This document shows positions 29,949 through 51,326 of a stretch of 64,000 nucleotides of DNA, piece by piece. The notes beneath the pieces are model-generated. The model did not search any database, was not told the DNA's origin, and saw only the letters and a list, made by a program, of their open reading frames with translations. The translations under genes and the position numbers were made by a program. Every line of letters starts with the position of its first letter. Position 1 is the stretch's first letter. Source of the DNA: Pseudomonadota bacterium (GTDB lineage: Bacteria > Pseudomonadota > Alphaproteobacteria > Micavibrionales > UBA2020); contig JAJZVA010000006.1 in the NCBI GenBank assembly GCA_021845905.1, positions 74,264-138,263 on the forward strand, given 5' to 3'.

Positions 29949-30869
29949 TTAAGCGGCGGCCCTCTCCTCGGCTTGGGATTCTGCGGTCTCCGCCTTCGGC
30001 TGCAAGCTGTGCAAGAAGGCGGCGGCGCGTTCGGCGTGGGCGGCGGCGGTGAAGACAGCCCGCTTGTCGTTCTTCAGTACGCGCAACCAGTTCTCAACGT
30101 AGCTGGCATGATCAGCGCGGGGTTCCGGTGTCAGAGCGAGGTCGGCACAGAGAAACGCACTGCCGAGTTCCGCCACCAGTTCCTCGGCGGCGTAAGCTTC
30201 ATCTCCCCAGCGTTTGCGGCCAAACTCGCGGGCAAGGCGCTTTTCGTGTTTCGTGGCGTGCGTGCATTCGTGCGCCAAAGTGGCGTAATAGCTTTCCGCA
30301 TCCCTGAACGTCTCGAACGGCGGCATCTGCACAACGTCGCGGCCTTCGGCGTAGAAAGCCCGGTCTCCACCATGCCGGATGTCGATTCCGGTCGCGGCAA
30401 AGAAGGCTTCCGCGTGGGCGATGCGCTGCACGGGATCGATCGTCGGCGCGGCGGGTGCCGTGAAGTGCGGCGGCAGATTGTCGATCTGCTCCGCGTTAAA
30501 CACGGTGTAGCCTTTGAGGAAGGGGATTTCGCGCTCGGTATCTTCTCCGTTCTCGGTCGTCTCGGTGCGCGTGATCTTGCTTGCGAACACGACAAGCTCG
30601 CCATGCTCTCCCTTGCGCACCTGCGCCCCGAGTTCCCGCGCTTGTTTATAGGTCAACCAAGTCGGCGAGACGTAACCGGATGCGGTAGCCGTCATCCAAA
30701 GCGTAATGACGTTGATTCCGCGATAGGGGATTCCGTTGTGGCGTAACGGGCGGGTGATGCGTCCTGCGGCATGTTCTGCGTTCCAAGGTTTCACCCAAGG
30801 ACGGGTGCCCGTCTCCAGTTCCGCCACGATGCGGTTGGTGATTCGCGTGTAGATGTCTTGCTTTTCCAT
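29949..30869 (-). CDS. ardC: ArdC-like antirestriction protein (ssDNA-binding N-domain + zincin peptidase)
   Basis: MEKQDIYTRITNRIVAELETGTRPWVKPWN; C-terminal HECTHAT; start at 30869, the track's upstream extension is not credible. Confidence 0.8.
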   Translation of the reverse strand: MEKQDIYTRITNRIVAELETGTRPWVKPWNAEHAAGRITRPLRHNGIPYRGINVITLWMTATASGYVSPTWLTYKQARELGAQVRKGEHGELVVFASKITRTETTENGEDTEREIPFLKGYTVFNAEQIDNLPPHFTAPAAPTIDPVQRIAHAEAFFAATGIDIRHGGDRAFYAEGRDVVQMPPFETFRDAESYYATLAHECTHATKHEKRLAREFGRKRWGDEAYAAEELVAELGSAFLCADLALTPEPRADHASYVENWLRVLKNDKRAVFTAAAHAERAAAFLHSLQPKAETAESQAEERAAA

Positions 30870-31239
30870 GATCTGCCTTCCTTTCCGGGCTTGGGGTTCA
30901 GCGCGCGTCTGAACCCTTGCCCGTCGGCGAGACCGGGGTGTGCAAGCGGAAAGGGGCTTCGCGGGGAACCGGCTGCACGGAGCCGGCGCCGCTTCGCGCG
31001 GGCGGAGGAAGCTGGGCGGAAGCCCCTTGCAGCGCGCTGAGGGGCAGCGCCCCTTCCATGTCCTTTTGCAAGTAATATTTCGTGCGTCAGCACACCGCAT
31101 AAAAATGCCGTGCTGAAATGGGGTTTTTGTGTTTCTGTTGGGTCGGAAGCAGGGCGGCGATGGCGACGGTCGATCAAACTTCCATACGCGGGTCAAAAAC
31201 CGCATGAATGCGTGTCGTCTTGGGCCTACCTCGGACTAA

Positions 31240-37130: not shown

Positions 37131-37270
37131 CGCGGCTTCCTGCTGCTCGCCGCGTCCATGGCGCGTAAGCCGGAGCCAAAGCCCTCAACGCGGACTTGCT
37201 CATCAAAAGCGCAAAGGGCGGACTCTGCCCACATGGCGCGGTTAAGGTTGGTTATTTTTGGAGAGGTCAT
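37127..37270 (-). CDS. small hypothetical protein (47 aa)
   Basis: MTSPKITNLNRAMWAESALCAFDEQ...; ATGA overlaps at both ends indicate translational coupling. Confidence 0.5.
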   Translation of the reverse strand: MTSPKITNLNRAMWAESALCAFDEQVRVEGFGSGLRAMDAASSRKPR

Positions 37271-37659
37271 TTGGACCTCCTTGCCGCCAGAGTGGCGGCG
37301 GCCTGCAAGAGGGCGGGCCGATCTTCGGTGATGCATTCGGTCCAGCGGGCGGCTTCGGCGTAAACCGACATGGGATGACCGGCAGTGAACGACAGGTCGC
37401 GTTCAACGGGCAACCCGAGCTTGCCGCGAAGGGAACGGAGTTCGTCGAGGCTGACGCAGCCGAGTTCGGGGAAACGAAGGCCGAGGTCGCAGAGACCGAA
37501 GGCGATGTCCGGCTCTTCCGGATCGATCTCAGAGAGAAGCCAGGTACAGCCGGCGTCCGGCGTAAAGAGTTTCACGACCGGCGGATGGTCCTGATCGCGA
37601 TTTCGTCCATTGGCGAGCAACTGCTCGAACTGCGCTTTGGTGAAAAGGTTCATGTTCAT
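37267..37659 (-). CDS. DUF2958 domain protein
   Basis: KLFTPDAGCTWLLSEIDPEEPDIAFGLCDLGLRFPELGCVSLDEL. Confidence 0.8.
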   Translation of the reverse strand: MNMNLFTKAQFEQLLANGRNRDQDHPPVVKLFTPDAGCTWLLSEIDPEEPDIAFGLCDLGLRFPELGCVSLDELRSLRGKLGLPVERDLSFTAGHPMSVYAEAARWTECITEDRPALLQAAATLAARRSK

Positions 37660-37713
37660 TCTCCTTGTGTTTGCTTACGCCCCGAAGGGACAGCGCAGCC
37701 AAGGCCGGGCGCG

Positions 37714-37790
37714 AGACGCAGCGTCACACAGGAAAATTGGGGGCGACCTTCAGGGGGAACCAAGGCTTCCTGTTGACGCGGGAAGCGTCT
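37714..37790. promoter_or_regulatory. conserved structured leader element, copy A
   Basis: AGACGC-A-GCGTCA-C-ACAGGAA...CCTTCAGGGGGAACC...TTCCTGT-TGACGC-GGGAA-GCGTCT; homologous copies at 46295 and 48655. Confidence 0.65.
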
Positions 37791-38186
37791 GCGGCTGGCA
37801 CGGTCGCTAGACACTGCCGTTCGGGGGACGGCAAGCACGGAGAGAAGTTGAACCGCCAAAGCGAAGACAGTGCTACACGCTATCGCACGATCAAAACGGC
37901 CTGAAATGCCTCCGCAGCTTTCGCCGTGGCGGCGCGCGACGCAGGAACATTGACCGAAGCTGCGGCGCGCCCGGCGGCGCCGGCGATGGCGGGGGCGGCG
38001 CTGGCGGCGGAGGAGGTTTCGCGAGAAGGCGCTCGATTGCTGCAATCGCCACGGCGATCCTGCGCTGCGCCAATGCCAGCATGCGCAGCATGGTTCCGGT
38101 CAAAAACCGGGAACCCCAATTGGAAAGCGCGGCAACCTTTCTGGTGAGGAAGCGGCTCGGCTTTGATTGCAGGAAGCGCGAACCGC

Positions 38187-39701
38187 TTAGCGTACACGTG
38201 GTGGCGGATCGGGTCCGTCCCTGCTTCGCCCATGTTCGTCCTTGAGCTGTTGTTCGAGGCGACGGCGCTCCTCGATCTCGGCGAGGAGTCTTACGGCGGC
38301 TTCGTGCTCGCGCAAATACCGGTCGCGTTCCTGCTCGTATTTGGCGTCGTGTTCGCGGCGCTGTTGTTCGTGGCGTTCGGTCAGCTCGGCGAGGTCACTT
38401 GCCCGTTCGGCCTTGAGGCGCGCGACCCGGTCAGCGCGTTCCTCTTTCTGTCGGCGCAAGAAGGCGTCCTTCGCGTCTTTGCGGTCGCGGGCTTTGTCGG
38501 CCATTAGTTGCGGATTGAGTCTTTCTTTGATCGCTTCGATGAAAGCGGCGATGCCGGTCTTTGCCCGATAGGTGTCCCGGAAAAACTGCTCCCTCGCCGC
38601 CTGTTGCAGGGCGTCGAAGTGACCGAGCTTCTCCCGGGCTTCCTCTGTGAGGACCCGCGCCGTCTGTTTGTATTCAGCCTCTTGCCGGAGGCGCATCTGG
38701 CGGCCTTCCTCCGCATGGCGCTCCTTCAACGCGGTTTCAAGGGCGGCGATTTCTTCCTTGGTGGGGTCTTGCTTGGCGGGGCTGTCCGGCGCGGGGCTTT
38801 CCGACGGTGACGGTGGCGGTTGGGGCGCGGGCTGTTGGTGAGCTTCAGGGCTCTCTGGCGGGGCTTTCTCCGGCTCCGGTTTCCGGGCGCGCTCGTCCTG
38901 AAGCGCCTTGGCCTGATCGATGGTCGGGATCACGTTCCGGTCGATGTCGGCCATGAATTCCCGCAGCTCTTTGGCGTTCACGCCTTTGATCTGCCGGGCG
39001 AGGCTATAGACCTGGTGATGTTCGTCCACGATCACGTAATCGCGGCGGTCGCCCCTGGCGAGGACGTAGCCCTTTTCTTCAAGGGCCGCCTTGAAAGCCT
39101 GTCCATTGTCGGATTGCTCATAGAGCGCGGTGATGGCGGCTTTGAATTCCCGCGGGTCGATGCCGGTGCGTTCGCCCTGCTGCCATTCGGCGTGGTTGAA
39201 TTCCTGCCGCGGGAACTCCGGCTGCTTCTCCCGATCGCGTTTGGCGTGCTTGCCGGGAACGTGCTCGTGCCCGAATTCCTTTTCGAGGGCCATGCTCGCC
39301 CGCTCGTGGGCAAGGTAGTTCCAACTGTCGGAGCGCAGCGTCATCGTGTCGATGTCGGTGCGCTGCCAGACGACGTGGATGTGCTCGCGCCCGTGCTTTT
39401 CATGGAGGACGACGGCGCGGGGCTGGTCTTCCAGGCCAAGCTCTTTTTCGAGGACTTCGACGGAGCGCTGCCACTGCTCGGGCGTCATGGCGTAGTCGCC
39501 GTGCGGGTCGATGTTGGCGTGATAGAGCCCCCGGCTCCCCAGAGTGCCTTCGGTCAGAAACTGCCAGTCGCGAAAGCTCTCCTTGAGGCTGTCGTGCGGG
39601 GACTGGATTTCGAGGATTTTGACGCGCTCATTGGTGTCGGTGCGGAGAAGATGGCGGGCGAGCTGGTCAGGGCTGCCGCGGCTGCTACCCTTGATGATCA
39701 T
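38187..39701 (-). CDS. relaxase/mobilization nuclease (MobA/VirD2 family)
   Basis: MIIKGSSRGSPDQLARHLL..., HGREHIHVVW His motif; long coiled-coil C-terminus. Confidence 0.85.
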   Translation of the reverse strand: MIIKGSSRGSPDQLARHLLRTDTNERVKILEIQSPHDSLKESFRDWQFLTEGTLGSRGLYHANIDPHGDYAMTPEQWQRSVEVLEKELGLEDQPRAVVLHEKHGREHIHVVWQRTDIDTMTLRSDSWNYLAHERASMALEKEFGHEHVPGKHAKRDREKQPEFPRQEFNHAEWQQGERTGIDPREFKAAITALYEQSDNGQAFKAALEEKGYVLARGDRRDYVIVDEHHQVYSLARQIKGVNAKELREFMADIDRNVIPTIDQAKALQDERARKPEPEKAPPESPEAHQQPAPQPPPSPSESPAPDSPAKQDPTKEEIAALETALKERHAEEGRQMRLRQEAEYKQTARVLTEEAREKLGHFDALQQAAREQFFRDTYRAKTGIAAFIEAIKERLNPQLMADKARDRKDAKDAFLRRQKEERADRVARLKAERASDLAELTERHEQQRREHDAKYEQERDRYLREHEAAVRLLAEIEERRRLEQQLKDEHGRSRDGPDPPPRVR

Positions 39702-40071
39702 CAGACCCCTCCCCGGCGGGTTTCATGCCGAGGGCGGTGAAGATGGCGTCGCGGATCATGCGATAGGCGGCCAGTGCCTCCTTGATTTCAGGGAGGGGGA
39801 CGGTTTCGCCCTGGTTCAGCCGGCGGGCGATCTGGTTGATGTTGTTGCCGATGCGCCCGCACTCGCCGAGGAGCTGCCGCAGGGTCCGATGGTCGGCGGT
39901 GGGCCGGCGCCTGGCGCGGGGGCCGGCATCGCCGAAGGCGGCGGCCCGCATGAAAGCGCCCGCGGCCATGCCGCTGCGGGAGGACAGGGTTTCAAGGGCG
40001 GCGCGCTCGTCTTTGGTCAGACGGACGGTGACAGTCTCGCCCCGCTGTCGTTTGTCGCTCCCGCTCGTCAT
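39685..40071 (-). CDS. mobC: MobC-family relaxosome accessory protein
   Basis: VRLTKDERAALETLSSRSGM... and GRIGNNINQIARRLN. Confidence 0.85.
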   Translation of the reverse strand: MTSGSDKRQRGETVTVRLTKDERAALETLSSRSGMAAGAFMRAAAFGDAGPRARRRPTADHRTLRQLLGECGRIGNNINQIARRLNQGETVPLPEIKEALAAYRMIRDAIFTALGMKPAGEGSDDHQG

Positions 40072-40180: not shown

Positions 40181-40572
40181 CAAGGGCGCAAAATGCCCCT
40201 GGTCGTCGCCGGGGCCGAAATCCCCGGTCATGGGTTCCATAGGGAGCACGAAGGCTCCCTTGGTCGGTGCCGGGGCCGAAACCCCGGTCAGAGTGCAGGG
40301 GCTCGAAGGCCGCCTGCTCGTGGGTGCCGGGACGCGAAAGTCCTGGCGAGTGGTCAAGGGCGCGATAGCCCTTGTCAGGGTCCAGGGCGGAACGCCCCGG
40401 CCATGGGTTCCTTAAGGGAGCACGGAGGCTCCCTTGGTCGGGTCCAGGGCGGAAGCCCGGTCTGGTCCAGGACGAAGTGCCTGGTCTGGGTCCACGGGGC
40501 GAAGCGCCCTGGTCCTGGGGATGCAACGGGGGTGGACAACCCCCTTGCCAAGCCGCGCGGTGTGACCGCGCA
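40181..40572. repeat. ladder of at least 10 short GC-rich hairpins punctuated by (T)GGTC, upstream of mobC
   Basis: e.g. CCGGGG-CCGAAAT-CCCCGG, AGGGAGC-ACGAAG-GCTCCCT, CAAGGGC-GCGATA-GCCCTTG, AAGGGAGC-ACGGAG-GCTCCCTT; ~39-nt direct repeat at 40229 and 40402. Confidence 0.7.
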
Positions 40573-41040
40573 TGGCTTGCACTTCACGATATCAGGATAT
40601 CACGAGTTTCCTTAATGTGGGATTAAGAAAGTCCGGTTTGCGGTGGGAGGCCTCGGCTAACGCCGATTCTCCCGATTCGATATGTAAATTATACCACGCA
40701 CGGCAGAGTTCGGGGACAATGCTTTGAGACGGAAGCTCATCGGGCTTCCGGCACGGCCCTATCGGGCCGTCCCGCAATCCTTGGCATAGGGCACATAGCA
40801 GGTTTGAAGCAGAGTGCCAGGCTTGAGACCTGTATGGCCGAGGTCGGAAATGACCTGTCTCCGATCGAGAACGGGGGCCACGTCGAGCCCGCCGCCGCCG
40901 GTTTCGAGAACCGACGGCGGCGTCATTGTTTTTTTCAGGAAAAACAATGAGTTATATGGATGACCTTTGAGAATTAACCGATAAATCAGTGGGTTATGAG
41001 ATAATCAAGAATAAGAGCAAAACCCGAGAATGGAGCGGGC

Positions 41041-41711: not shown

Positions 41712-44700
41712 TCACGTCCTGACCTCTTCCGGCCCGGGAATGTCGGCGGCGACGAGTTGCTTTAGGTCCTCTATTCCTACGTCATGCGCATCCGCCAGCC
41801 TCGTCGCCTGTCGTTCCATGCAGACTTCGAAGAGATTGCGCACCGCGCGACCGTTGCCGAACCCCTTGCCACGCCCTGTATAGAGCGCATGGATAGTTTT
41901 CTTGAGCTTCGGGGGCGCCTTTCCGGTCAGCTCCATGCCGTTCCGGGCACAAAGCCCCCGGAAAATCTCCATCAAGTCTGACGGTTCATAGTCGGGGAAA
42001 TCGATGAACGTCTTGAAGCGCGATTTGAGGCCGGGGTTGCTGTCCACGAAACCCTGCATTTCTTCGCGATAGCCCGCCGCGATGACCACGAGACGGTCCC
42101 GGTAATCCTCCATGAATTTGAGCAGCGCCGTAACGGCCTCGATCCCGAAATCGTTGTTCGAGTCTGACGAAATCAGGCTGTAGGCTTCGTCGATAAACAG
42201 CACGCCGTCCAGGGCCTGCTCCACGGCCTCCGCAACCTTGGGCGCGGTCTGGCCGATATATTCCGCCACCAGATCGCCCCGGCTTACCTCGATACAATGG
42301 CCTTTTTTCAGGACCCCAAGATCGCGATAAATCCGGCCGATGATGCGCGCGACCGTCGTCTTGCCCGTGCCGGGGTTGCCCGTAAAAACCAGATGGTTCG
42401 ACCTCTCGGGCACCGGCAAGCCTGCCTTCCGCCGTGCCTGGTTGACTTTCTCCAGATTGGCGACGGTTTCGACCTGCTTTTTGACGGGCGCGAGACCGGT
42501 CAGTCCGCGCAGGTCCGCGAAGGGGTCTTGCTTCGTCTCGACCGGAGCGGGCGCTGCCGGTTGCTTTTCTCGGGGCGGCTTCGGCGGAGGCGATGACGGT
42601 TGCGGTGGCGGTTGCGGCGGTTTCTGCTGCCCTTTGCTGAAATAAGGATTCTCGTCGTACTGAAGCGGCGGCGCCTTACCCATGTTGTACGGATACATAT
42701 GCTTGAGATGATCGTAGGCACGATCGAGATTCCAGTAGTCGATGGGTCTGAGATACTCCGGCAAACCGCGCGGGTTGAGCAGGATTGCCACGTCCCGCCC
42801 GAGATTGAGAATCTCGTCGGGCATCAGCAGCGGGCGTGCCATCTCGCCGAAGTTGGTGCTTTCCCCGGATGTGGCGCCGCCCTTGGTCTCGCCGGAGGAC
42901 ATGGATGTCGCCACGGTGCGCACGGTCGCCTTGCCGAGGCTCTCGCTGAGATATTTGGCGGTGTCGAGTTCGTTGACGAAACAGAACCACTTGAAGGCGC
43001 AATTGCTGAGGATCGTTCCGCTGGAATCGCCGTAGTGATCCTTGAGCTGGTCGAGCCCCTGCACGATCAGCGTGAAGTCGAGCCCGTAGCCGCTCATCAG
43101 CGCGATATCGCGCGGAATGTCGTCGATGCGCCCGATGGAGCCGAACTCGTCTATCAGGAACATGCAGCGACGGCGCGGCACGCTTGTGGCCTTGTGGCTT
43201 TTCATGCCCTGCATGGCGGAGGCGATGACCAGCCGGAGCCAGGTGGCGTGGGTTTGAATCCGGTCGTGCGGGATGACGAGATAGACGGTGGTCGCTTCCT
43301 CCCGGAGCTTCTTCATCGAAAACGAAGACGAGGCCGTCGATTGCTTGATCTGCGGGTCCGACAGGAACTTGGTGTTCTCTGCCAGGTTCGACATGATCCC
43401 GCTGTAGGTTTCCGGCGCGAGGTCGATGTACTGGCTGACCATCTCGCTGACCGCGCCGTGGTAAGCGGTTGAAGCCGTCATCTTGACCAGAATCTTGAGA
43501 AACTCGGCCCGGCTCATGGTCACGATCTGACGGGCGCGGGCGAGGGTCTTTTGTTCGCCCGGCGCGTCGGCGATCCAGAGAAAGACGCCCGCGAGCACGT
43601 TGGCCGCGCTCCCCTGCCAGAACGACTCCTTGCCTGTCGCGGGCGGGCAGATGATTGCCGCGAGCGATTGGGCGAAGGCGACGGCGTTGGGATCGTTGCG
43701 GTCGAGCGCGTCGAGCGGGTTGAAAGTCGCCCTGGCGAAGCCAAGGCTCCGGTAACGGCTCTCCATTTCTCCCCACGGGTTGACGATATGGACCGTCTGC
43801 TTATGCCGGTTGCGGCGCGTGCGCGCCGTGATCGCCGCGTTCTCGCCTTTGGGGTCGATGACCAGCATCGAGCCTGTGTAATTCAACAAGGTCGGCACGA
43901 TAACGCGGGTGCCCTTGCCCGCCCGCGTGCGGGCCACGATCAGCGTATGTGTTTCCGGCGATGACGTGACGGGGGCGCCGGGAGCATCGGCAGGGATGTC
44001 AGGTCTGCTGCTTTTACCGAAGTTGACGCCCTGGAACATATTCTCCCCGCGACGCTCCACGATCCGATGTTCGGCCCAGTCGGCGGTGCCGTAGTTGTCG
44101 CTCAGCGGCGGAAGGGAATCGTCCGGCTCTTCTTCACGTCTCAACATCAGCCACCCAAAAAACCCGATCACGAACGCGCCGCCACCGTAAACCAGAACGT
44201 AAGCGCTTGCGGTGATCCAGGGATTCGGCTTGACCGAAGACCCCGCGTTCGCGGAAGAAACGGGGTTCTGGCCCCGTCTTTGCGCCTCACTCTCCCAATT
44301 GACCTGCGCCGCCACGTATTCCGGCGCAAAGTAGCGCCCGAGCACGTCACGCATAAAATCCGTGTTGGCGCTGTAGGCGTATTCCTTCTCGAAAAACTGC
44401 GGCCGGATGCAGCTCTTGCCGGAACAATTCCCGTCGTTGAATTTGAGGCCATAGGGTTTCTCGCCGAAGGCGCGGGAGTATTCCCGAAACTTGGCGGCGG
44501 CGCGGGGCGGCATCGACCTGATGTCCAGGGCGCCGGTCCAAACCTGAATCGCGTTGCGGAGGATTTCGAAAGCTGCGGCCTGCCGTGCGGCCGTATCGAT
44601 TTCGTTCGAACCCCGGACGTCCCTGAACACTTGCGCGACCGTGGGAGCATGGGCGATCCATCCGTCGCTCATGGCTGCGGCGCGGCAGGTGGCCGGCACA

Positions 44701-44747
44701 GGAGCAAGCGCCAGAGCGAAAGACAGACAGAGCAGACGAAAGCGCAT
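41712..44747 (-). CDS. VirD4/TraG-type coupling protein fused to a C-terminal CbbX/SpoVK-like AAA+ module
   Basis: Signal-like MRFRLLCLSFALALAPVPATC (start 44747; track start 44855), TM segment, IVARTRAGKGTRVIVPTLL Walker A, Pro-rich linker, then VFTGNPGTGKTTVARIIGRIY...GVLFIDEAYSL. Confidence 0.8.
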   Translation of the reverse strand: MRFRLLCLSFALALAPVPATCRAAAMSDGWIAHAPTVAQVFRDVRGSNEIDTAARQAAAFEILRNAIQVWTGALDIRSMPPRAAAKFREYSRAFGEKPYGLKFNDGNCSGKSCIRPQFFEKEYAYSANTDFMRDVLGRYFAPEYVAAQVNWESEAQRRGQNPVSSANAGSSVKPNPWITASAYVLVYGGGAFVIGFFGWLMLRREEEPDDSLPPLSDNYGTADWAEHRIVERRGENMFQGVNFGKSSRPDIPADAPGAPVTSSPETHTLIVARTRAGKGTRVIVPTLLNYTGSMLVIDPKGENAAITARTRRNRHKQTVHIVNPWGEMESRYRSLGFARATFNPLDALDRNDPNAVAFAQSLAAIICPPATGKESFWQGSAANVLAGVFLWIADAPGEQKTLARARQIVTMSRAEFLKILVKMTASTAYHGAVSEMVSQYIDLAPETYSGIMSNLAENTKFLSDPQIKQSTASSSFSMKKLREEATTVYLVIPHDRIQTHATWLRLVIASAMQGMKSHKATSVPRRRCMFLIDEFGSIGRIDDIPRDIALMSGYGLDFTLIVQGLDQLKDHYGDSSGTILSNCAFKWFCFVNELDTAKYLSESLGKATVRTVATSMSSGETKGGATSGESTNFGEMARPLLMPDEILNLGRDVAILLNPRGLPEYLRPIDYWNLDRAYDHLKHMYPYNMGKAPPLQYDENPYFSKGQQKPPQPPPQPSSPPPKPPREKQPAAPAPVETKQDPFADLRGLTGLAPVKKQVETVANLEKVNQARRKAGLPVPERSNHLVFTGNPGTGKTTVARIIGRIYRDLGVLKKGHCIEVSRGDLVAEYIGQTAPKVAEAVEQALDGVLFIDEAYSLISSDSNNDFGIEAVTALLKFMEDYRDRLVVIAAGYREEMQGFVDSNPGLKSRFKTFIDFPDYEPSDLMEIFRGLCARNGMELTGKAPPKLKKTIHALYTGRGKGFGNGRAVRNLFEVCMERQATRLADAHDVGIEDLKQLVAADIPGPEEVRT

Positions 44748-45173
44748 CTGAATCAGTCCCCGGGGCATCGCCACAGGCGGCTCGATGGCAGACAAGGCCG
44801 AAAGCTCTGTAGTCCGTCCGACGCCAGAAGCGATAGTGCTGCGGAAGTATTGCATACGCCAGTCCCTGAACCTCTGAAAAAAGCGCGTTGGAGACCTGCC
44901 GCTTTGATTGTGTCCGCGCGGTAATGATTCAAATCCATGATCTCCCCCCCTTTTCAGGGAGCCCCGATTCCGGACTTCGATGGTGCAGCGTTAGCACCGG
45001 CGCGCCTTTGGGCGCTGCAAGCTTGTTGCCAAGCTCCTTCTCTTCGTTGCGGTCCACTCATGTTGCGCATGCACAGCATGGTGGATGCAGCTCAAGGCGG
45101 CCGTCGCTCTCCACGGCTGCGTGAAGTCCGCGATCGGCGCGGGCAGAAGAAAAGGAGAGACACCATGAGAGTC

Positions 45174-45443: not shown

Positions 45444-45950
45444 TCACGCGCAACGATAAACAAGCCGCGTTCCGGCAATGGTCGTTTCGCTGTAGTCCAT
45501 GCCGAGGTCACGGGCGATGGCGTCATAGTCGAGATAATTGCGGATGGGTTCGGGGATTTCTCCGAACAGTCCTTCATCGACAAATTGCTCGGCGAGTTCG
45601 CGCAGGCTGTCTATTTGATAAAGATCAACGTCGAAGTCGTCCGGATCGCCGGAAGCCAGGTCGAAGCGGTATCCGCATTCGCCGACGGCGATGATGACTT
45701 TCTGCTTCTGATTATCGTCCCACGCGTCGCAGGCGTCCAGAAATTGCGGGAAGTTGCCTTGGTTGACGCCGAGCGCCTCGAACAGCTTCGCGTCGATGCT
45801 TTCGCCGTCGATGAATTGCAGTTCAAATCCCTCCACGGGGCAGCCAGCGGAATTGCGTAGCTTCGCGGCTTTCTCCGCGTATTCGGACGCGGTTCGGAAG
45901 TAGAAGCCCGTGGCGCTGATGTCGTAAGGTTGTGCGAATAATTCGGTCAT
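45444..45950 (-). CDS. ardA: ArdA-family antirestriction protein
   Basis: Acidic 168-aa protein; family recognised from overall pattern incl. MTELFAQPYDISATGFYF N-terminus. Confidence 0.75.
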   Translation of the reverse strand: MTELFAQPYDISATGFYFRTASEYAEKAAKLRNSAGCPVEGFELQFIDGESIDAKLFEALGVNQGNFPQFLDACDAWDDNQKQKVIIAVGECGYRFDLASGDPDDFDVDLYQIDSLRELAEQFVDEGLFGEIPEPIRNYLDYDAIARDLGMDYSETTIAGTRLVYRCA

Positions 45951-45960: not shown

Positions 45961-46230
45961 TCACGCTGCCAGTAGGGTTTCGGCTTCGAGCATCACGTCG
46001 ATGTAATCGACGGGACCGCCGGCGGCGGTGATGATCGAACGCGGCAGGGCGTGCGCGTAAAGCCCGCTTGGCGCGATGGGAAGCGGTGCGTCGGTGGGAT
46101 AGATGCTCCGCACCTGAAGGTGCGCGAAGTCTTGTCCGGTGACGCTGGCCGGAAGCCAGTCGGGCTCATAGGTGATTTCCAGCAAGTGGCCCTTCCAGTC
46201 CATGCGGTGTATTTCGGTCGTGCGTTTCAT
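45961..46230 (-). CDS. hypothetical protein
   Basis: 89-aa ORF directly upstream of ardA and downstream of leader element copy B. Confidence 0.5.
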   Translation of the reverse strand: MKRTTEIHRMDWKGHLLEITYEPDWLPASVTGQDFAHLQVRSIYPTDAPLPIAPSGLYAHALPRSIITAAGGPVDYIDVMLEAETLLAA

Positions 46231-46294
46231 CGGCGTTTTCCTTTTTTCTGTTTGAACGATCCCCTTCGGGATTGAGTCCCCGCCTCACGCGCAA

Positions 46295-46396
46295 GGGCGC
46301 GGTGTCACACAAGAAAATCGGGGGGAACCTTCAGGGGGAACCGACCCCTGAACGAAGTTCGGGGCCTGTTTTCTTGTTGACGCCAGAAAGCGCCCG
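46295..46396. promoter_or_regulatory. conserved structured leader element, copy B
   Basis: GGGCGC-GGTGTCA-C-ACAAGAAAA...CCTTCAGGGGGAACC...TTTTCTTGT-TGACGCC...GCGCCC; compensatory changes relative to copies A and C. Confidence 0.65.
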
Positions 46397-46512
46397 CGCG
46401 TGATAAAAGGGGCCAGACCGACACTGAAGGGGCGTTCAAAACCTGAGAGAAAAAGGAAAACGCCGGTCGCGTGAACGACCGGCGTCATGGACGGCGATGC
46501 GTCCGTTGATGA

Positions 46513-48330
46513 TTACCGGAGGATGTCCGGCAACCAGCCCGTGCCGGCGATTTCACGCTCAGCAAGTGCGGCCAGCTCGGCCTTCTTGAGCTTGTCCCAT
46601 GCGGGCGCAACCGGCTGCTTGCGCGCGTCTGTCAGGGCATCGAGGATTTGCGGTTTGCTGATGCGGCTGAAATATCCCTCGGCCGTCGGGGTGAACCACG
46701 CCTTCATGTCGAGCTTGACCGCGACGGAGAGTTTACTGGCATGGTCCAGTCTCGGGCAGTCCGGACGATCCGTCTTGCGCTGCACGGCATTGACCATGCA
46801 GGCCGCGCAGAATGTCAGGAGATCGAGTAACACGGACTGATCCTGCTCCAGACACCAGTTCCAGAGATCATCCGGAGTACCGGGGATACGTTGGCCCCAG
46901 GATTCACGGGCTCGTTCAAGACGCTGGAAAGCAGTCGAGCCTTCGACAAGATTCAGCGGCTGCGTTTTGCCGGAAAGTTCAAGGGCCGTAGCGTGTCCTT
47001 GATCGAATGTGTCCAGCACAAGGGCGTACACGATCGTGGCAAGACCTTTGTCCGGTGCGTCCAGCAAGGTTGCGGCAAGCGCTGCCGACCTATGGGCGGT
47101 CAGGCTCTCGACCAGCGCCGCCGACAATCCGGGAGTCTCCGCTTCAACGGCTGCGGTATCCGCATCGCCGGGAACGCCAGAGACTTTTGCCTTTTTGGAC
47201 TGTTTCGGCATGTCCTCCGGCTTCACAAAACCGCGCTCGATCTTCACCTTGCCGGCGTGATCGAGGGATACCACGGTGCCCGCGATCGCAAGCTGTTCCG
47301 GCGTCCAGACGCCGTCGCGGTCTTCGATGTCGGCGATGAGCTTCTCCAGCTCGTCGAGACGTTCCGGCGCTTCGCCCGCGTCGGATGCGTACCACGCGTC
47401 ATTCAGGGCGGTGTATTCCGCCTGAAGGCTGTCGAACCGTTGCTGTTCGTCTTCGGTCAGGGGAACGGGCTCGGGATAGATACGCCTGTAAGCGGAACTT
47501 TGCGCGTATCCGAACTCGGGCATGACTTCGATCCATTTCCAGCCCTCGGCGCGGACCGGCTTGGCCTTCTTCTCAAGCTTCTCCGTCACAAGGCTGTCCA
47601 GCAGGGCGGCGTCTTCGATATAGACGCCGTTGTCGTCGTCGCTGAACAGGTCGCGCTTGAGATTGCCACCGGCCTTTTCGTACCCGTTCAGGGTCACGAA
47701 TTTCACGCGCTTGTCGGTTGCGGCGATGTCGTTCTCCGTCAGGGCGTCGCGGATGTCGCGGGCATCGTTGCGTTCGGGGTCGTAATCCGCCAGCACGCGT
47801 TCCTGCGCTTCGTGGTCGTCGGTCACGGCGAAGGCCATGACGCATTCCAGCGTCAGGTCGCCGTCCCGGTACGCCTTGATGATGCTCGGGCTGACACGGG
47901 CCAGTTTCAGGAGCTTCTGGACGTGGGCCTCGCTGCATCCGAAACGGGCGGCAATATCCGCAGCCGGCATACCGTCATCGGTCAGGGAACGGAACGCCTC
48001 GAACTGGTCGGCGGGGTGCATGTCTTCCCGCATGACGTTCTCGGCCAGGCTCAATTCCGTTGCGTTGTCGGCCGCCGTGATGCGGCATGGCACCGGAAAT
48101 GTCGCCTGTAGATCACCGGTCTTGGCGAGTTGCTGCAAGGCTTTCAGGCGTCTGCCGCCGGCGACGACGGCGAACTTCTTGCCGTCCTTGCGGACGACGA
48201 GATTTTGCTGAAGGCCGTGGGCTTTGATGCTGGCGGCCAGCGCGTCGATGCCGTCCTTGTTCCGGATTTTCCGAACGTTGCCGGACCAGACGGTCAGCTT
48301 GTTGAGCGGTACATTTATAATGTCGGTCAT
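46513..48330 (-). CDS. ParB/Srx N-terminal domain protein
   Basis: VPLNKLTVWSGNVRKIRNKDGIDALAASIKAHGLQQNLVV ParB-type N-domain; 605 aa. Confidence 0.75.
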   Translation of the reverse strand: MTDIINVPLNKLTVWSGNVRKIRNKDGIDALAASIKAHGLQQNLVVRKDGKKFAVVAGGRRLKALQQLAKTGDLQATFPVPCRITAADNATELSLAENVMREDMHPADQFEAFRSLTDDGMPAADIAARFGCSEAHVQKLLKLARVSPSIIKAYRDGDLTLECVMAFAVTDDHEAQERVLADYDPERNDARDIRDALTENDIAATDKRVKFVTLNGYEKAGGNLKRDLFSDDDNGVYIEDAALLDSLVTEKLEKKAKPVRAEGWKWIEVMPEFGYAQSSAYRRIYPEPVPLTEDEQQRFDSLQAEYTALNDAWYASDAGEAPERLDELEKLIADIEDRDGVWTPEQLAIAGTVVSLDHAGKVKIERGFVKPEDMPKQSKKAKVSGVPGDADTAAVEAETPGLSAALVESLTAHRSAALAATLLDAPDKGLATIVYALVLDTFDQGHATALELSGKTQPLNLVEGSTAFQRLERARESWGQRIPGTPDDLWNWCLEQDQSVLLDLLTFCAACMVNAVQRKTDRPDCPRLDHASKLSVAVKLDMKAWFTPTAEGYFSRISKPQILDALTDARKQPVAPAWDKLKKAELAALAEREIAGTGWLPDILR

Positions 48331-48365
48331 GATGGTTCTCCCTTCTGAAAAGAAGAAGAGCGCCG

Positions 48366-48596
48366 TTAAGCGCTCTTCCCTTCCGTTTCCTCGGGTTGCA
48401 CAGCGGCTTTTGCTTTGGGCGGAAATGCCGCGTAGCGTTTGCCGGCGATCAAGAGGGTGAAGCCGTTGCCCTTCTTGTGGGCGAAGCCTGCACCTGCGGG
48501 TTTGCCGGATTTTTCGCCGTTGGCTGCGTTCTCGAAGATGTAGAAGTCGGGAACCTGTTTGGTTTTGGCCGTTTGGTTTTCAGTGGTCGTTGTCAT
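48366..48596 (-). CDS. hypothetical protein
   Basis: GGAG RBS then ATG at 48596: MTTTTENQTAKTKQVPDFYIF...; first gene after leader element copy C. Confidence 0.5.
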   Translation of the reverse strand: MTTTTENQTAKTKQVPDFYIFENAANGEKSGKPAGAGFAHKKGNGFTLLIAGKRYAAFPPKAKAAVQPEETEGKSA

Positions 48597-48654
48597 TTTA
48601 GTCTCCTTCGTTTGCATTACCCTTTCGGGCGATGCCTCCGATCAGCCAGCAGCG

Positions 48655-48730
48655 GATGCAGCGTCACACAGGAAAATTGGGGGAGACCTTTAGGGGGAAC
48701 CGAGGCTTCCTGTTGACGCGGGAAGCGGCC
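48655..48730. promoter_or_regulatory. conserved structured leader element, copy C
   Basis: GCGTCA-C-ACAGGAA...CCTTTAGGGGGAACC...TTCCTGT-TGACGC; near-identical to copy A. Confidence 0.65.
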
Positions 48731-49244
48731 GCGCATGGCAGGGGGCTCGAACATGCACGAAGGGTGGATGCAAATAGCGGAAGGAGATGATGTGCTGACA
48801 ACGCCGGAGAACCACGGCTCGCAAACAGGAACGCGTCATCATTCCTGAGAAGAACGGACGCGCGGAAAAGACCGTTTGATCACCCGTTCGCTCCACCACG
48901 GCAGATTAGGTGAACCGATCCCGTAGATCGCATCCGTCAACGTTGCGGCCTCCGGCAAGCAGCCGCGCAACCTCGTTTGGATACGGAAGGGAATGTCGAT
49001 AACGGGTGTGCTCACACTTCCGAAAGGAAAGCTCGGCGGCGCCCCCACAGCGCAACGCCCGAGCTGCTGATTGTCAAATGAGGAAAATGTCGAACCCGGG
49101 AATCGTCCGATCCGTGTTCGACGCGGCACGCGCAACGGTCCCGTAGCTTTATCGTGCCTGTCGCCGTTAGGCCGTTCGGCCCGGCTCCGGAGCGCCGTCC
49201 AGCGCTCCCGACAACTTGAAGATTCTCAAGCAGGGAAAGGAAGA

Positions 49245-49558
49245 TGGTGCGGGCGGCCGGACTTGAACCGGCACAGGCCTTTCGGCCCTACGGATTTTCA
49301 TACCACTACGGCTTTCGCCGCGTTCGCCGCTGCGCCTCTCGGCACAGGACGCTTTGTGGTCTGGACTATCCCTTCACCATAGCCGTTGCTTTAGGTGCTG
49401 CCCGTCTAGTCTCTACACCTTCCCGTTTCCGGGCTTGGCTCGGGATTGCCATGTGAAAGGTTTCCCCGACTTTGAGCAGTTCTGCATCGCGGGTTTCCCC
49501 GCGCGCACTCAATTTTCTGGTTTAAGTCCGTTGCGTCTACCAATTTCGCCACGCCCGC
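49245..49558 (-). tRNA. tRNA-Leu(UAA) interrupted by a group I intron (exons 49558-49524 and 49298-49245)
   Basis: 5' exon GCGGGCG-TG-GCGAAATTGGTAGACGC-A-ACGGA-CTT; 3' exon AAAA-TCCGT-AGGGCCGAAAGGCCTGT-GCCGGTTCAAGTCCGGC-CGCCCGC-A-CCA. Confidence 0.85.
49299..49523 (-). ncRNA. group I intron (225 nt, no ORF) between U34 and A35
   Basis: Shares TCGGGGAAACCTTTCACATGGCAATCCCGAGCCAAGCCC and GGGAAGGTGTAGAGACTAGACGGGCAGC with the 6715-6945 intron; GAAGGGATAGTCCAG; ends ...GGTATG. Confidence 0.8.
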
Positions 49559-49746: not shown

Positions 49747-51069
49747 CTATCTTGCCTTTGGGGGCGGAGTCCGCGGTCGCGGCTTGCGCACGTTTATGGC
49801 TCCGGCATCGATGCTGTCTTTGATGTGAGAGGCGTAATACTTCTCGATCATCTCGACACTGGTACGGCAGTTTTTCGCGATCTGATAGATGTCGGCGCCT
49901 TCCATGAGCCTCAAGCTGATATAGGTATGACGGAGGCTATAGGCGGTTCGCTCGTTGCCCTCCCGGTCTGTCTTGAGATCGAGTTCGTTCAAAATGTCTC
50001 TAAACAATTGCCTGTGCGTTTTCGGGAACACCAGGTCCGTCGGTTTCGGAAGGACGGTTGTTGTGTCCGGCTCCTCGTTCGATGCGCCTGACGAAGAAGA
50101 TGATCGAAGGCTTTCGCTCATCTTTGCCGGACGCCGGCGCTTCTCCAAGCGCCTGAAGGGCTCTACTGCGCCAGGCATGCTTTTGCAGTAGCCGACACCA
50201 CGCTTGCCGCGAACGGTGATGACAAGAATGTCGTCTTTGCCGTTTTTGGCGCTTCCGGACTCGATTTCCACGTCCCGAAACTGAAGCCGCAGCGCTTCGT
50301 CGGGCCGCAGTCCGGTGTTCGCCATGAACAGCACAAAGTCATGGAGTTGCTCGCACGACCACTTCCAGCGCGGCTTTGGAGGATTCTTGGCGCGCGTTCC
50401 CGTTGCCGTATAGAGCTGCCTGTACTCTTCCGCAGAGAACCAGGCGCGATGGGATACCTTGGATGAGGATTGGTATGGCGCGGATAGATTGGGAAGATGG
50501 TCAAGCCACCCCTGCCGATTTGCAGTTTTCAGTATCTGACGGAGGCAGACTATTTCCTGATGGAGGGCGCTGCGCGATGGAGGCTTTTGCCTTTCAAAGC
50601 CCTTGGACGAACCGTTCTTCTTGATATGCGCCGCAAGCTTGTGTTGGTCCGTACGGGACATTCCCGTCTTCATGCGGTGTATGCGGTAGTCCTGAACCTT
50701 GCCTGCCGTTATATCGCTGAGAACCAAATTGCCGAAGAACGGATTCAGATGGTTGTTGATCCTGTCCTTGTGGCAGGCGACATATACCTCGCTTCTCTGC
50801 CCTTCGGTAATGGTCTCGAATTCATCGATGAAGCGTTCGGCTGCTTCCCGGAAGGTCTTCCCTTCCTTCAACTCGCCGGCTCGATATTTTCCCAGGAGGC
50901 TTAGGTACCAGTCTCGGGCTACATCCTTTGCGCGGGCGAGGCTTTCTTCTCTCGTCGTGGTGCGCCGCTGGCGTCCGGCCACTGAACACGAGCACTGCCA
51001 ATGCGGACTGTTCTTCCGCATGTAGAGCTGGACGCGATTGTCCATAAGGGAGTGGCGGGTGGTGTCCAT
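49747..51069 (-). CDS. tyrosine recombinase/integrase
   Basis: Homologous over its length to 7005..8207 (FMANTGLRPDEA, AYSLRHTYISLRLMEGADIYQIAKNCRTSVEMIEKYY) with a Ser-rich insertion. Confidence 0.9.
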   Translation of the reverse strand: MDTTRHSLMDNRVQLYMRKNSPHWQCSCSVAGRQRRTTTREESLARAKDVARDWYLSLLGKYRAGELKEGKTFREAAERFIDEFETITEGQRSEVYVACHKDRINNHLNPFFGNLVLSDITAGKVQDYRIHRMKTGMSRTDQHKLAAHIKKNGSSKGFERQKPPSRSALHQEIVCLRQILKTANRQGWLDHLPNLSAPYQSSSKVSHRAWFSAEEYRQLYTATGTRAKNPPKPRWKWSCEQLHDFVLFMANTGLRPDEALRLQFRDVEIESGSAKNGKDDILVITVRGKRGVGYCKSMPGAVEPFRRLEKRRRPAKMSESLRSSSSSGASNEEPDTTTVLPKPTDLVFPKTHRQLFRDILNELDLKTDREGNERTAYSLRHTYISLRLMEGADIYQIAKNCRTSVEMIEKYYASHIKDSIDAGAINVRKPRPRTPPPKAR

Positions 51070-51163: not shown

Positions 51164-51204
51164 GATTTTAAGTCGTGTGCGTCTACCAGTTCCGCCACAG
51201 GGCC
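51164..51204 (-). tRNA. 5' part of the resident tRNA-Leu(UAA), ending in att core copy 3
   Basis: Minus strand GGCCCTG-TG-GCGGAACTGGTAGACGC-A-CACGA-CTTAAAA-TC, then CTATGTAAAATAAT (no tRNA 3' half). Confidence 0.85.
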
Positions 51205-51326
51205 CTGCTTTATAAACCGTCTCCAGAAATTACGTGAACACCCAAAGATATTCAAGGTTTTAACGATATTTTCACCTTTCCTGCATATTATGGATACATA
51301 ACATTTGCACTTCAACACGGGAGAAA

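What the first reader, a model, noticed from the sequence alone, without database searches (positions are those of the whole stretch)
46231..48730. Copies B and C of the leader hairpin show compensatory and strand-biased wobble changes
Copy C (48655-48730, before the 48596 gene and parB-like) is nearly identical to copy A. Copy B (46295-46396, before 45961..46230 and ardA) changes both arms together:
- ACAAGAAAA/TTTTCTTGT versus ACAGGAA/TTCCTGT
- outer stem GGGCGC/GCGCCC versus AGACGC/GCGTCT

This is evidence for a conserved fold. Two substitutions give T.G pairs on the plus strand: TTGG/CCGA in copy C and GGTGTCA/TGACGCC in copy B. On the minus strand these would be A.C mismatches, so the folding strand may be the plus strand, which is the template strand of the downstream genes.

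That is what one would expect of single-strand promoters (Frpo-like). These fire on the incoming transferred strand to express anti-defence genes such as ardA early. An antisense RNA is the alternative explanation.
Basis: partly seen in the sequence, partly recalled or inferred. Interest (0 to 1): 0.75.

Follow-up and report, generated by a model that had tools for sequence, protein, structure and literature searches.

The report
Hairpin promoters for incoming single-stranded DNA
Three long DNA hairpins in front of anti-restriction and related genes of a conjugative element belong to a large, undescribed family that most likely acts as promoters only while the transferred strand is still single-stranded, switching on establishment genes as soon as the DNA enters a new cell.

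Summary
Copies A (about 37654-37853), B (46222-46470) and C (48591-48800) are the only three copies in the window.

The three copies alone do not decide which strand folds (G.T:A.C = 13:9). About 160 homologues from genomes and metagenomes of several phyla do:
- Stems covary: 256 double changes against 84±8 in shuffles.
- The plus strand folds better in 125 of 128 elements and in 23 of 24 sequence clusters.
- G.T outnumbers A.C 255:74.

The 3' arm carries TTGnnn, a 16-nt spacer and yAnnnT. The -10 adenine tends to be unpaired. The complement of the 5' arm lacks these signals. The promoter is therefore complete only in the hairpin. Its template is the 5' arm, which leads into the minus-strand genes.

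An RP4-like oriT (inverted repeat, then nick region) lies on the same strand as the hairpins in 6 of 6 loci. That makes the plus strand the transferred strand.

Downstream genes include ArdA, SSB, methylases and ParB-like proteins.

Verdict: a putative single-strand promoter family, Frpo-like in mechanism but unrelated in sequence, with an invariant G-rich apical module. It is not in Rfam or the searched literature. No experiment supports it yet.

The parts
37654..37853 (+). Copy A: long imperfect hairpin (plus strand folds). It drives the DUF2958 gene.
   Evidence: DNA fold -53.2 kcal/mol, z -3.7; 65.4 bits.
37737..37763 (+). Copy A apical module: TTGGGGGCGACCTTCAGGGGGAACCAA.
37773..37778 (+). 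Copy A -35-like TTGACG on the 3' arm. The minus strand opposite the 5' arm reads GTGACG because of a bulged C.
37796..37801 (+). Copy A position of the -10 (TGGCAC, 17-nt spacer). Poor sigma-70 match.
37267..37659 (-). DUF2958 gene downstream of copy A.
   Evidence: PF11171, E 3.7e-39.
46222..46470 (+). Copy B: long hairpin running from the start codon of orf89 to the terminator of the ParB-like gene. Its apex carries an extra inserted mini-hairpin.
   Evidence: -73 kcal/mol, z -7.7; 33.5 bits.
46318..46344 (+). Copy B apical module: TCGGGGGGAACCTTCAGGGGGAACCGA.
46377..46382 (+). Copy B -35-like TTGACG on the 3' arm.
46401..46409 (+). Copy B extended -10: TG-a-TAAAAG. TAAAAG lies in a 7x3 internal loop (pre-melted). 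The spacer is 21 nt in linear DNA and 16 if the AGAAA bulge is extruded.
45961..46230 (-). orf89, first gene after copy B. No family match.
45444..45950 (-). ArdA-like anti-restriction gene, second gene after copy B.
   Evidence: PF07275, 35 bits, cut-off 27.
46459..46486 (-). Intrinsic terminator ending the orf83/ParB-like unit just upstream of copy B.
48591..48800 (+). Copy C: long hairpin. Its right arm mirrors the 5' UTR, the ribosome-binding site and the first ~12 codons of orf83.
   Evidence: -41.2 kcal/mol, z -3.0; 68.8 bits.
48677..48703 (+). Copy C apical module: TTGGGGGAGACCTTTAGGGGGAACCGA.
48713..48718 (+). Copy C -35-like TTGACG on the 3' arm.
48736..48741 (+). Copy C position of the -10 (TGGCAG, 17-nt spacer). 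It is followed by the conserved GGGGGC, which pairs with GCCTCC of the 5' flank.
48366..48596 (-). orf83-like small gene, first gene after copy C. It is the commonest first gene in the family (50 of 126).
46513..48330 (-). ParB-like 605-aa gene, second gene after copy C.
40547..40601 (+). Candidate oriT: inverted repeat GCCAAGCCGCGCGG-tgtga-CCGCGCATGGCTTGC, followed by the nick-region-like ACTTCACGATATCAGGATATC. This places the nick on the plus strand and the leading region to the right.
38187..40071 (-). Relaxase (MobA/VirD2 nuclease domain) and MobC/NikA-like accessory gene. Both are transcribed away from oriT and predicted to enter last.

Best explanation
Each element is a single-strand DNA promoter. 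During conjugation the plus strand is nicked at oriT (about 40.6 kb) and enters the recipient 5' to 3'.

Once a hairpin region has entered, its two ~100-nt arms snap back around a conserved G-rich apical module. This rebuilds a duplex promoter region. The 3' arm supplies the non-template strand: an A/T-rich stretch, the -35 TTGACG, a ~16-bp effective spacer and a -10 that is partly unpaired. The 5' arm supplies the template.

Host RNA polymerase binds this fork or bubble mimic. It transcribes down the 5' arm and out into the minus-strand genes: orf89 and ardA for copy B, orf83 and the ParB-like gene for copy C, DUF2958 for copy A. This happens before the complementary strand is made.

After conversion to duplex, the good promoter (3' arm) points away from the genes. 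The gene-side copy has degraded hexamers, so expression falls. The transcript may also prime complementary-strand synthesis, especially from copy A near the 3' end of the transferred strand.

Shown by computation: the fold, covariation, strand asymmetry, placement of the promoter-like motifs, oriT polarity and gene content. Inferred: binding by RNA polymerase, the start site, silence in duplex form and priming.
For: Distribution:
- Three copies in the window and no more.
- About 160 homologues in 154 loci from Alphaproteobacteria, Acidobacteria, Nitrospira, Bdellovibrionota and others.

Fold and covariation:
- Over 122 sequences, 86.6% of cells are paired against 72.6% in shuffles. There are 256 double-change cells against 84±8 (0/500 shuffles reach this). 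The covariation score is 0.343 against 0.140, and slid registers reach at most 0.16.
- The window's own subfamily is 93.8% paired, with 9 double-change cells against 1.4±1.1.
- Arms pair well beyond the core: median 34 outer pairs against 14 in a flank-swap control.

Folding strand:
- The plus strand has the lower MFE in 120-125 of 126 elements.
- With the apex replaced by a neutral GAAA loop, 108-112 of 126.
- With full arms, 125 of 128.
- 23 of 24 independent sequence clusters, p = 3e-6.
- G.T:A.C is 255:74 in a strand-neutral arm alignment.
- The apical closing pair is T.G in 99, C-G in 12 and T-A in 6 of 122.

Promoter geometry:
- TTG is present on the 3' arm in 94 of 126 elements and on the complement of the 5' arm in 62 of 126. 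The yAnnnT signal after a 16-nt spacer is seen only on the 3' arm.
- The pairing profile dips at the -11 and -7 positions.
- The 3' arm matches the consensus better in 76 elements and worse in 23.

Gene context:
- A gene with ribosome-binding site and start codon lies on the opposite strand at a fixed distance in 106 of 123 elements, against 34 of 116 scattered on the other side.

Transferred strand:
- An oriT module sits on the same strand as the hairpins in 6/6 loci, one with the canonical TATCCTGT. The RP4 reference is PMC3772185.
- The relaxase is co-oriented with the hairpin-driven genes in 11/12 loci.

Other:
- Downstream genes include ArdA, SSB, N6/N4 methylase, a methylase-helicase, ParB-like, DUF736, DUF2958 and DUF6876.
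- No strict linear sigma-70 promoter is found on either strand between 46200 and 48850.
Against: - No transcript, start-site or transfer data exist.
- The -10 of copies A and C (TGGCAC, TGGCAG) is far from any sigma-70 consensus, and mean consensus matches are modest: 6.65 of 12.
- Copy A and its relatives lie about 2.6-2.9 kb before the 3' end of the predicted transferred strand, not in the leading region.
- In two loci (L121, L152) a second copy lies on the opposite strand in front of an alpA-like gene, and in L053 a relaxase homologue is convergent.
- Nick position and polarity are inferred from resemblance to RP4, not measured.
- Sequences are related, so cell counts overstate independent events. 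The cluster test addresses this only partly.
- Gene conversion between the arms of an inverted duplication could mimic some covariation.
Confidence: 0.7

Rival explanations
1. The elements are primarily single-strand initiation sites (ssi/sso-like) for complementary-strand synthesis. RNA polymerase or a primase recognises the hairpin on the transferred strand and makes a primer. Gene expression would be secondary.
For: - Everything that shows plus-strand ssDNA folding also fits this reading.
[quoted passage not shown] A primer made there would allow copying of nearly the whole element.
- Frpo RNA is reported to prime DNA synthesis (as summarised in PMC12672017).
- The invariant apical module could be a primase or primosome recognition site.
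Against: - A ribosome-binding site and start codon lie at a fixed distance on the template side in 106/123 elements.
- The 5' UTR, ribosome-binding site and first codons are included inside the hairpin.
- Several copies per element each precede an operon.
- All of this points to mRNA production. The two functions are not exclusive.
Confidence: 0.12
2. The element is an ordinary duplex-DNA feature: an inverted duplication of a promoter and 5' region gives two back-to-back divergent promoters. Arm complementarity is maintained by gene conversion. The hairpin never forms in vivo.
For: - The right arm mirrors the UTR, the ribosome-binding site and even the first ~12 codons, and carries a short ORF of 18-20 codons.
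- The -35/-10 motifs on the 3' arm would read rightwards in duplex DNA.
- Two loci have copies on both strands.
Against: - Gene conversion should erase asymmetries. Yet bulges, the TTG against GTG difference, a -10 only on one arm and a 3.4:1 G.T:A.C bias are conserved across 24 clusters.
- A rightward transcript would only be antisense to the 3' end of the upstream gene.
- No conserved long ORF follows on that side: 34/116, at scattered distances.
- The stems change sequence freely while keeping pairing. This is not expected for a protein-bound duplex palindrome.
Confidence: 0.1
3. The structure acts in RNA. Either it is a leader structure of the minus-sense mRNA (for example sequestering the ribosome-binding site in read-through transcripts), or it is a plus-sense antisense RNA.
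For: - In a read-through minus-sense transcript the mirrored arm would pair with the Shine-Dalgarno region.
Against: - The minus strand folds worse in 125/128 elements, and A.C mismatches would replace the G.T pairs.
- The near-invariant apical T.G would be C.A in minus-sense RNA.
- A plus-sense RNA from the embedded promoter would start beyond the -10, outside most of the hairpin.
- A terminator separates copy B from the upstream gene.
- No Rfam family matches.
Confidence: 0.05

Closest known systems
Frpo / ssi1-3 (class 1 single-strand DNA promoters of IncF and IncI1 plasmids)
   Same: - A long stem-loop is formed by the transferred strand.
- The -35 and -10 are rebuilt in the stem with unpaired bases around the -10.
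- It lies upstream of co-oriented early genes such as ssb and ardA whose template is the transferred strand.
- There are several copies per element.
- A primer role is possible.
(PMC11541004; PMC12672017.)
   Different: - There is no sequence similarity. blastn of copy C against 72,556 plasmids finds one Sphingopyxis plasmid only.
- The motif is absent from the supplementary files of the Frpo survey.
- It has an invariant G-rich apical module that Frpo is not reported to have.
- Its hosts are environmental Alphaproteobacteria, Acidobacteria, Nitrospira and others, and it sits mostly in integrative conjugative elements.
- One conserved copy lies at the last-entering end.
- Activity has not been shown.
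Class 2 and class 3 ssDNA promoters of pESBL/F (upstream of klcA, ardA and M.EcoGIX)
   Same: These are hairpin promoters without homology to Frpo. They were found upstream of anti-defence operons in the leading region, with mapped start sites (PMC12672017).
   Different: They are enterobacterial plasmids, and no shared sequence is evident: nothing from IncF or IncI plasmids appears. The present family is defined here by comparative analysis only.
ssoA-type single-strand origins of rolling-circle plasmids
   Same: From my own knowledge: a strand-specific ssDNA hairpin is recognised by host RNA polymerase through promoter-like sequences, and it makes a primer RNA.
   Different: From my own knowledge: sso elements have the RSB and CS-6 motifs, are not coupled to a downstream ribosome-binding site or gene, and occur on small plasmids of Firmicutes. 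The elements here are coupled to genes.
Integron attC sites
   Same: From my own knowledge: imperfect palindromes that fold from one specific strand of ssDNA, with extrahelical bases, and are favoured by conjugative ssDNA.
   Different: - attC sites lie downstream of cassettes, carry R/L boxes (RYYYAAC / GTTRRRY) and need an IntI integrase.
- Here the elements lie upstream of genes.
- The arm reads GTTGACG, which does not fit GTTRRRY.
- The only integrases present are integrases that sit beside tRNA-Leu genes.

Membership tests
Frpo-like single-strand DNA promoter (functional class) | A long stem-loop is formed specifically by the strand that serves as template of the downstream genes. | tested here: met
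   Covariation. Plus strand favoured in 125/128 elements and 23/24 clusters; G.T:A.C 255:74.
Frpo-like single-strand DNA promoter (functional class) | -35 and -10 hexamers are rebuilt in the stem, on the arm that acts as non-template strand, with unpaired bases near the -10. | tested here: inconclusive
   - The -35 TTGACG is met in all three copies.
- The -10 is met in copy B (TG-n-TAAAAG in an internal loop) and in most other subfamilies.
- The -10 is poor in copies A and C (TGGCAC, TGGCAG).
Frpo-like single-strand DNA promoter (functional class) | The folding strand is the transferred strand. | tested here: met
   Inferred, not measured. An RP4-like inverted repeat plus nick region lies on the same strand in 6/6 loci. 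The relaxase is co-oriented in 11/12 loci.
Frpo-like single-strand DNA promoter (functional class) | Location in the leading region. | tested here: inconclusive
   Copies B and C lie 5.7 and 8.1 kb downstream of the predicted nick, and one L013 copy lies 2.2 kb downstream. Copy A and its relatives lie at the last-entering end.
Frpo-like single-strand DNA promoter (functional class) | RNA polymerase initiates on the single-stranded form, and the duplex form is inactive. | not testable with these tools
   This needs in vitro transcription or transconjugant RNA-seq. The only indirect hint is that the gene-side duplex hexamers are degraded.
Frpo / ssi1-3 sequence family (class 1) | Sequence homology to the known Frpo/ssi sequences. 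| tested here: not met
   blastn against PLSDB finds one Sphingopyxis plasmid and no IncF or IncI plasmids. The motif is absent from the Frpo survey's supplementary files.
Any curated RNA family (Rfam 15) | A covariance-model match at or near the gathering score. | tested here: not met
   No match on the elements in the window or in six other loci. The only overlap is a miRNA model at 27 bits against a cut-off of 64.
Integron attC site | R''/L''-L'/R' boxes, a position downstream of a cassette, and an IntI integrase nearby. | tested here: not met
   The arm sequence does not fit GTTRRRY. The elements lie upstream of genes. The integrases present lie beside tRNA-Leu genes.

The most novel reading that the evidence does not exclude
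This would be a phylum-spanning class of single-strand promoters built as a topological switch. The strong promoter is encoded on the 'wrong' arm of a ~200-nt inverted repeat and meets its gene only in the snap-back form. The invariant G-rich apical module (two G5 tracts around a CC/GG mini-hairpin) would be a dedicated structure or recognition site, for example a G.G/G.A zipper, a two-tetrad quadruplex, or a contact for RNA polymerase or a co-transferred protein. That module would let the promoter fire on ssDNA in very different hosts.
Probability: 0.3. Interest if true: 0.85.

Novelty: new variant of a known kind. Interest (0 to 1): 0.7.

Why it matters
Single-strand promoters have been shown only for a few enterobacterial plasmids. 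A recent study found that those of pESBL fire poorly in Sinorhizobium (PMC12672017). That leaves open how conjugative elements of other bacteria express anti-defence genes before the second strand is made.

This family offers a concrete, testable candidate. It is found in integrative conjugative elements and a plasmid of Alphaproteobacteria, Acidobacteria, Nitrospira and predatory bacteria. It has enough natural variation to define which parts matter.

Its motif could be used to mark early genes, many of them of unknown function. One is the small orf83-like protein that follows 50 of 126 distinct elements. The motif could also be used to orient the transferred strand in unannotated elements.

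Tried and rejected
- **Rfam.** Scans at gathering and permissive thresholds gave nothing on the elements.
- **Literature.** A full-text search for the apical motif and for ssDNA promoters in integrative elements found no description.
- **Sigma-54 reading** of TGGCAC/TGGCAG. Rejected by inspection: no GC sits at the -12 distance.
- **ECF-type reading** of the GGAAC in the loop. No conserved -10 partner.
- **Four-tract G-quadruplex** across the whole hairpin. Rejected because the third tract (GGGAAG) is not conserved.
- **Small 'leader hairpins' with tetraloops** between element and ribosome-binding site. First read as mRNA features, then seen to be part of the long arms.
- **RBS-like AAGGAGA to the right of the hairpins.** First suspected to mark plus-strand genes. 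ORF statistics and the mirror alignment show it is the complementary copy of the real ribosome-binding site.
- **A fourth copy in the window.** None found.
- **The nick motif in other loci.** A first regular expression was too strict. A search on the inverted repeat succeeded.
- **Plasmid database.** Only one plasmid carries the element.
- **Gapless pair counting from the loop outward.** Confounded by bulges, so it was replaced by alignment-based counts.
Full report
**Observation**

The window holds three copies of one element, all in the same orientation. A 24-nt core pattern finds them with none expected by chance. A covariance model run with filters off scores them 68.8 (C), 65.4 (A) and 33.5 (B) bits, with the next hit at 14 bits.

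Copy C is 90% identical to copy A over 89 nt.
- ACAAGAAAA/TTTTCTTGT in B against ACAGGAA/TTCCTGT in A and C
- GGGCGC/GCGCCC in B against AGACGC/GCGTCT in A
- T.G in TTGG/CCGA of C
- T.G in GGTGTCA/TGACGCC of B

Copy A spans about 37654-37853, copy B 46222-46470 and copy C 48591-48800. They fold as single long stem-loops at -53, -73 and -41 kcal/mol, with z = -3.7, -7.7 and -3.0. The right arm mirrors the 5' UTR, the ribosome-binding site and even the first ~12 codons of the gene on the left.

Second, within the window alone the wobble bias is 13 G.T against 9 A.C. That decides nothing.

**Surroundings**

Each copy lies just upstream, on the minus strand, of a gene unit:
- A precedes a DUF2958 gene.
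- B precedes orf89 and an ArdA-like gene.
- C precedes a small orf83 and a 605-aa ParB-like gene.

An intrinsic terminator ends the ParB-like unit just before copy B.

Nearby lie a MobA/VirD2-type relaxase with a MobC/NikA-like gene, a coupling protein, ArdC, large minus-strand ORFs (14093-27575) that may encode the transfer apparatus (not scanned for families), and tyrosine integrases. The region is a conjugative element integrated in a chromosome.

**A large family**

A genome scan with the left-arm motif gave 33 loci. They come from Sphingomonadales, Caulobacterales, Rhodospirillales, Acidobacteria, Nitrospira, Bdellovibrionota and others.

The model finds 160 copies in these loci.

The apical module is constant while the flanking stems differ freely between subfamilies.

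No Rfam family matches. No paper in the library holds the motif. It is absent from the supplementary files of the Frpo survey. Only one of 72,556 plasmids carries it: pSREG01 of Sphingopyxis, typed MOBP.

**Is the fold selected?**

On 122 aligned elements with 17 named pairs:
- 86.6% of cells are standard pairs, against 72.6% in shuffles.
- 256 cells carry changes on both sides, against 84±8. None of 500 shuffles reach the observed value.
- The covariation score is 0.343 against 0.140, and slid registers reach at most 0.16.
- 12 of 15 pairs of the main helix show compensatory changes.

The window's own subfamily varies little but agrees: 93.8% paired, and 9 double-change cells against 1.4±1.1.

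Pairing extends far out. The median is 34 pairs beyond 50 nt from the apex, against 14 when outer flanks are swapped between elements.

**Which strand folds?**

- The plus strand, which carries the G-rich apex, has the lower MFE in 120-125 of 126 elements, with DNA or RNA parameters.
- With the apex replaced by a neutral GAAA loop, 108-112 of 126.
- With full 115-nt arms, 125 of 128.
- After merging related elements into 24 clusters, 23 of 24, binomial p = 3e-6.
- A strand-neutral alignment of one arm against the reverse complement of the other gives 255 G.T-type against 74 A.C-type mismatches.
- The pair that closes the apex is T.G in 99, C-G in 12 and T-A in 6 of 122 elements. It would be C.A on the other strand.

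The folding strand is therefore the plus strand, the template of the adjacent genes. This excludes a leader structure in the minus-sense mRNA.

**Promoter geometry**

About 9-10 nt after the apical module, the 3' arm carries TTGnnn in 94 of 126 elements. The complement of the 5' arm carries it in only 62.

Sixteen nucleotides further on, the 3' arm shows A/T peaks that spell yAnnnT (TAGCGT, TAACGT, CAATGT and so on). The other side shows nothing comparable.

In MFE structures the 3' arm is paired in 81-93% of elements at the -35 and 78-90% just before the -10. Pairing drops to 48-57% at the -11 and -7 positions, recovers to about 73% for some six nucleotides, and then ends. This is the shape of a promoter with a pre-opened -10.

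The 3' arm matches the sigma-70 consensus better than the complement of the 5' arm in 76 elements and worse in 23.

In a snap-back hairpin the 3' arm is the non-template strand and the 5' arm the template. Transcription therefore runs out of the hairpin leftwards into the genes. In agreement, 106 of 123 elements have a ribosome-binding site, a start codon and an ORF of at least 50 codons on the opposite strand, mostly 77-119 nt from the apex (one each at 39 and 184). The other side has 34 of 116 at scattered distances.

In the window:
- All three copies have TTGACG on the 3' arm. A bulged C in the 5' arm turns the duplex-form equivalent into GTGACG or GTGACA.
- Copy B has TG-a-TAAAAG, with TAAAAG in a 7x3 internal loop. 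A 5-nt bulge (AGAAA) makes the spacer 16 in the folded form and 21 in linear DNA.
- Copies A and C have TGGCAC/TGGCAG at that place. This is a poor -10 and remains unexplained.
- A strict linear sigma-70 scan finds nothing on either strand between 46200 and 48850.

**Which strand is transferred?**

Upstream of the MobC/NikA-like gene, the plus strand reads as follows:
- an inverted repeat at 40547-40580 (GCCAAGCCGCGCGG-tgtga-CCGCGCATGGCTTGC)
- immediately followed by ACTTCACGATATCAGGATATC

The RP4 nick oligonucleotide is GGGCCTACTTCACCTATCCTGCCCGGCTGA. In RP4 the inverted repeat lies 5' of the nick, the core is ATCCTG, and the relaxase attaches to the 5' cleaved end (PMC3772185).

The same module is conserved in pSREG01 and in four other loci. 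It is on the same strand as the hairpins' folding strand in all six. In L116 it carries the canonical TATCCTGT right after the repeat. Relaxase homologues are co-oriented with the hairpin-driven genes in 11 of 12 loci and MobC in 8 of 8.

The plus strand is therefore the predicted transferred strand. The leading region runs rightwards from about 40.6 kb. Copies B and C lie 5.7 and 8.1 kb into it.

Copy A lies at the far, last-entering end. So do its DUF2958-driving relatives in L007, L030, L116 and pSREG01, each about 2.6-2.9 kb before the repeat.

**Gene content**

The first genes after 126 distinct elements fall into these groups:
- a small orf83-like protein without family (50)
- a large methylase-helicase (11)
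- DUF736
- ArdA
- DUF2958
- ParB-like
- DUF6876
- an N6/N4 DNA methylase
- SSB
- single examples whose sequences resemble AlpA and RadC (not scanned for families)

[quoted passage not shown] ArdA, the methylases and SSB here fit that description. Several of the other groups have no known function.

**Mechanism proposed (confidence about 0.7)**

The element is a single-strand promoter of the Frpo kind.
1. The incoming plus strand snaps back.
2. The 3' arm provides an A/T-rich stretch, the -35 and a partly unpaired -10. The 5' arm provides the template.
3. Host RNA polymerase starts near the base of the inner stem and transcribes through the outer stem into the genes.
4. After second-strand synthesis, the well-formed promoter points away from the genes and the gene-side copy is degraded, so expression should fall.

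The fold, its strand, the motif placement, the oriT polarity and the gene content are computed results. Polymerase binding, the start site, silence in duplex form and any primer function are inferences from what is known of Frpo and of the pESBL promoters.

**Rivals**

- **A primarily priming function (ssi/sso-like).** This fits the ssDNA evidence and the position of copy A. It does not explain the tight coupling to ribosome-binding sites. The two roles may coexist.
- **A duplex inverted duplication with two divergent promoters and gene conversion.** This fits the mirrored UTR and codons. It does not fit the conserved asymmetries or the strand bias.
- **RNA-level structures.** These are contradicted by the strand asymmetry and by the position of the embedded promoter.

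**Limits and open points**

- Nothing has been tested experimentally.
- Related sequences inflate the counts. The cluster test mitigates this only in part.
- L121 and L152 carry a second copy on the opposite strand before an alpA-like gene. L053 has a convergent relaxase homologue.
- Both G5 tracts of the apical module are invariant in 122 of 122 elements, although only two G of each are needed for pairing. The central CC/GG mini-hairpin lengthens by compensating inserts in several subfamilies. No function could be assigned to this module.

**Comparison and novelty**

In mechanism the element resembles Frpo/ssi1-3 and the class 2 and 3 promoters of pESBL and F. It is not a sequence member of any of them. 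It differs by its apical module, its hosts, its presence mostly in integrative elements, and a conserved copy at the last-entering end. I rate it a new variant of a known kind.

Noticed in passing
window 49245-49556 (-), 6660-6977 (-), 51170-51221 (-): - The Rfam group I intron hit (49342-49533) is the intron of a complete tRNA-Leu(UAA)-like gene.
- A second complete intron-containing copy, with a different but self-consistent acceptor stem, lies at 6660-6977.
- Each copy sits directly downstream of a tyrosine integrase (49747-51069 and 7005-8207).
- A third piece, a 5' fragment that appears to lack the intron, lies at 51170-51221.
- ARAGORN reports no tRNA in the window.
- This looks like tandem integrative elements at a tRNA-Leu site, with the tRNA 5' exon as the att core and each element carrying its own intron-containing tRNA.
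   Followed up: partly
window 41712-44855 (-): The coupling protein (VirD4/TraG-type, residues ~300-720) is fused to a C-terminal AAA+ module of the CbbX/SpoVK/EccA type (residues ~780-1040). This is an unusual architecture.
   Followed up: no
window 40241-40284 and 40415-40458; L154 23840-24030: An array of small repeated hairpins (GGGAGC-ACGAAG-GCTCCC followed by TTGGTC) lies between the MobC/NikA-like gene and the oriT inverted repeat. It is also present in pSREG01. These are probably binding sites for the relaxosome accessory protein.
   Followed up: no
window 48366-48596 (-) and 50 related loci: A small (~76 aa) protein without any Pfam or NCBIfam match is the commonest first gene behind these hairpins (50 of 126 distinct downstream proteins). 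It usually precedes a ParB-like gene. It is a candidate early establishment or anti-defence factor.
   Followed up: partly
L121 8720-8792 (-) and L152 9880-9952 (-): In two related metagenomic loci a second hairpin element lies on the opposite strand, in front of a divergent alpA-like gene. This does not fit a single transferred strand, unless that copy works in another way or belongs to another element.
   Followed up: partly
window 48787-48848 (+) and 37853-37915 (+): The right arms of copies C and A carry an RBS-like AAGGAGA or GGAGAG followed by short ORFs of 18-20 codons. In copy C the first residues (LTTPEN) mirror the N-terminus of the real gene on the left (MTTTTEN). These are decoy copies created by the inverted repeat.
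   Followed up: partly
window 31337-32464 (-): An IS110-family transposase gene lies next to ArdC (29949-31205) and is followed by DUF535 and glycosyltransferase genes. This is probably cargo or an insertion inside the conjugative element.
   Followed up: no
L155-L163 (IMG/VR contigs): Nine contigs of the viral collection carry the apical motif. They are probably fragments of conjugative elements filed as viral, but they were not examined.
   Followed up: no
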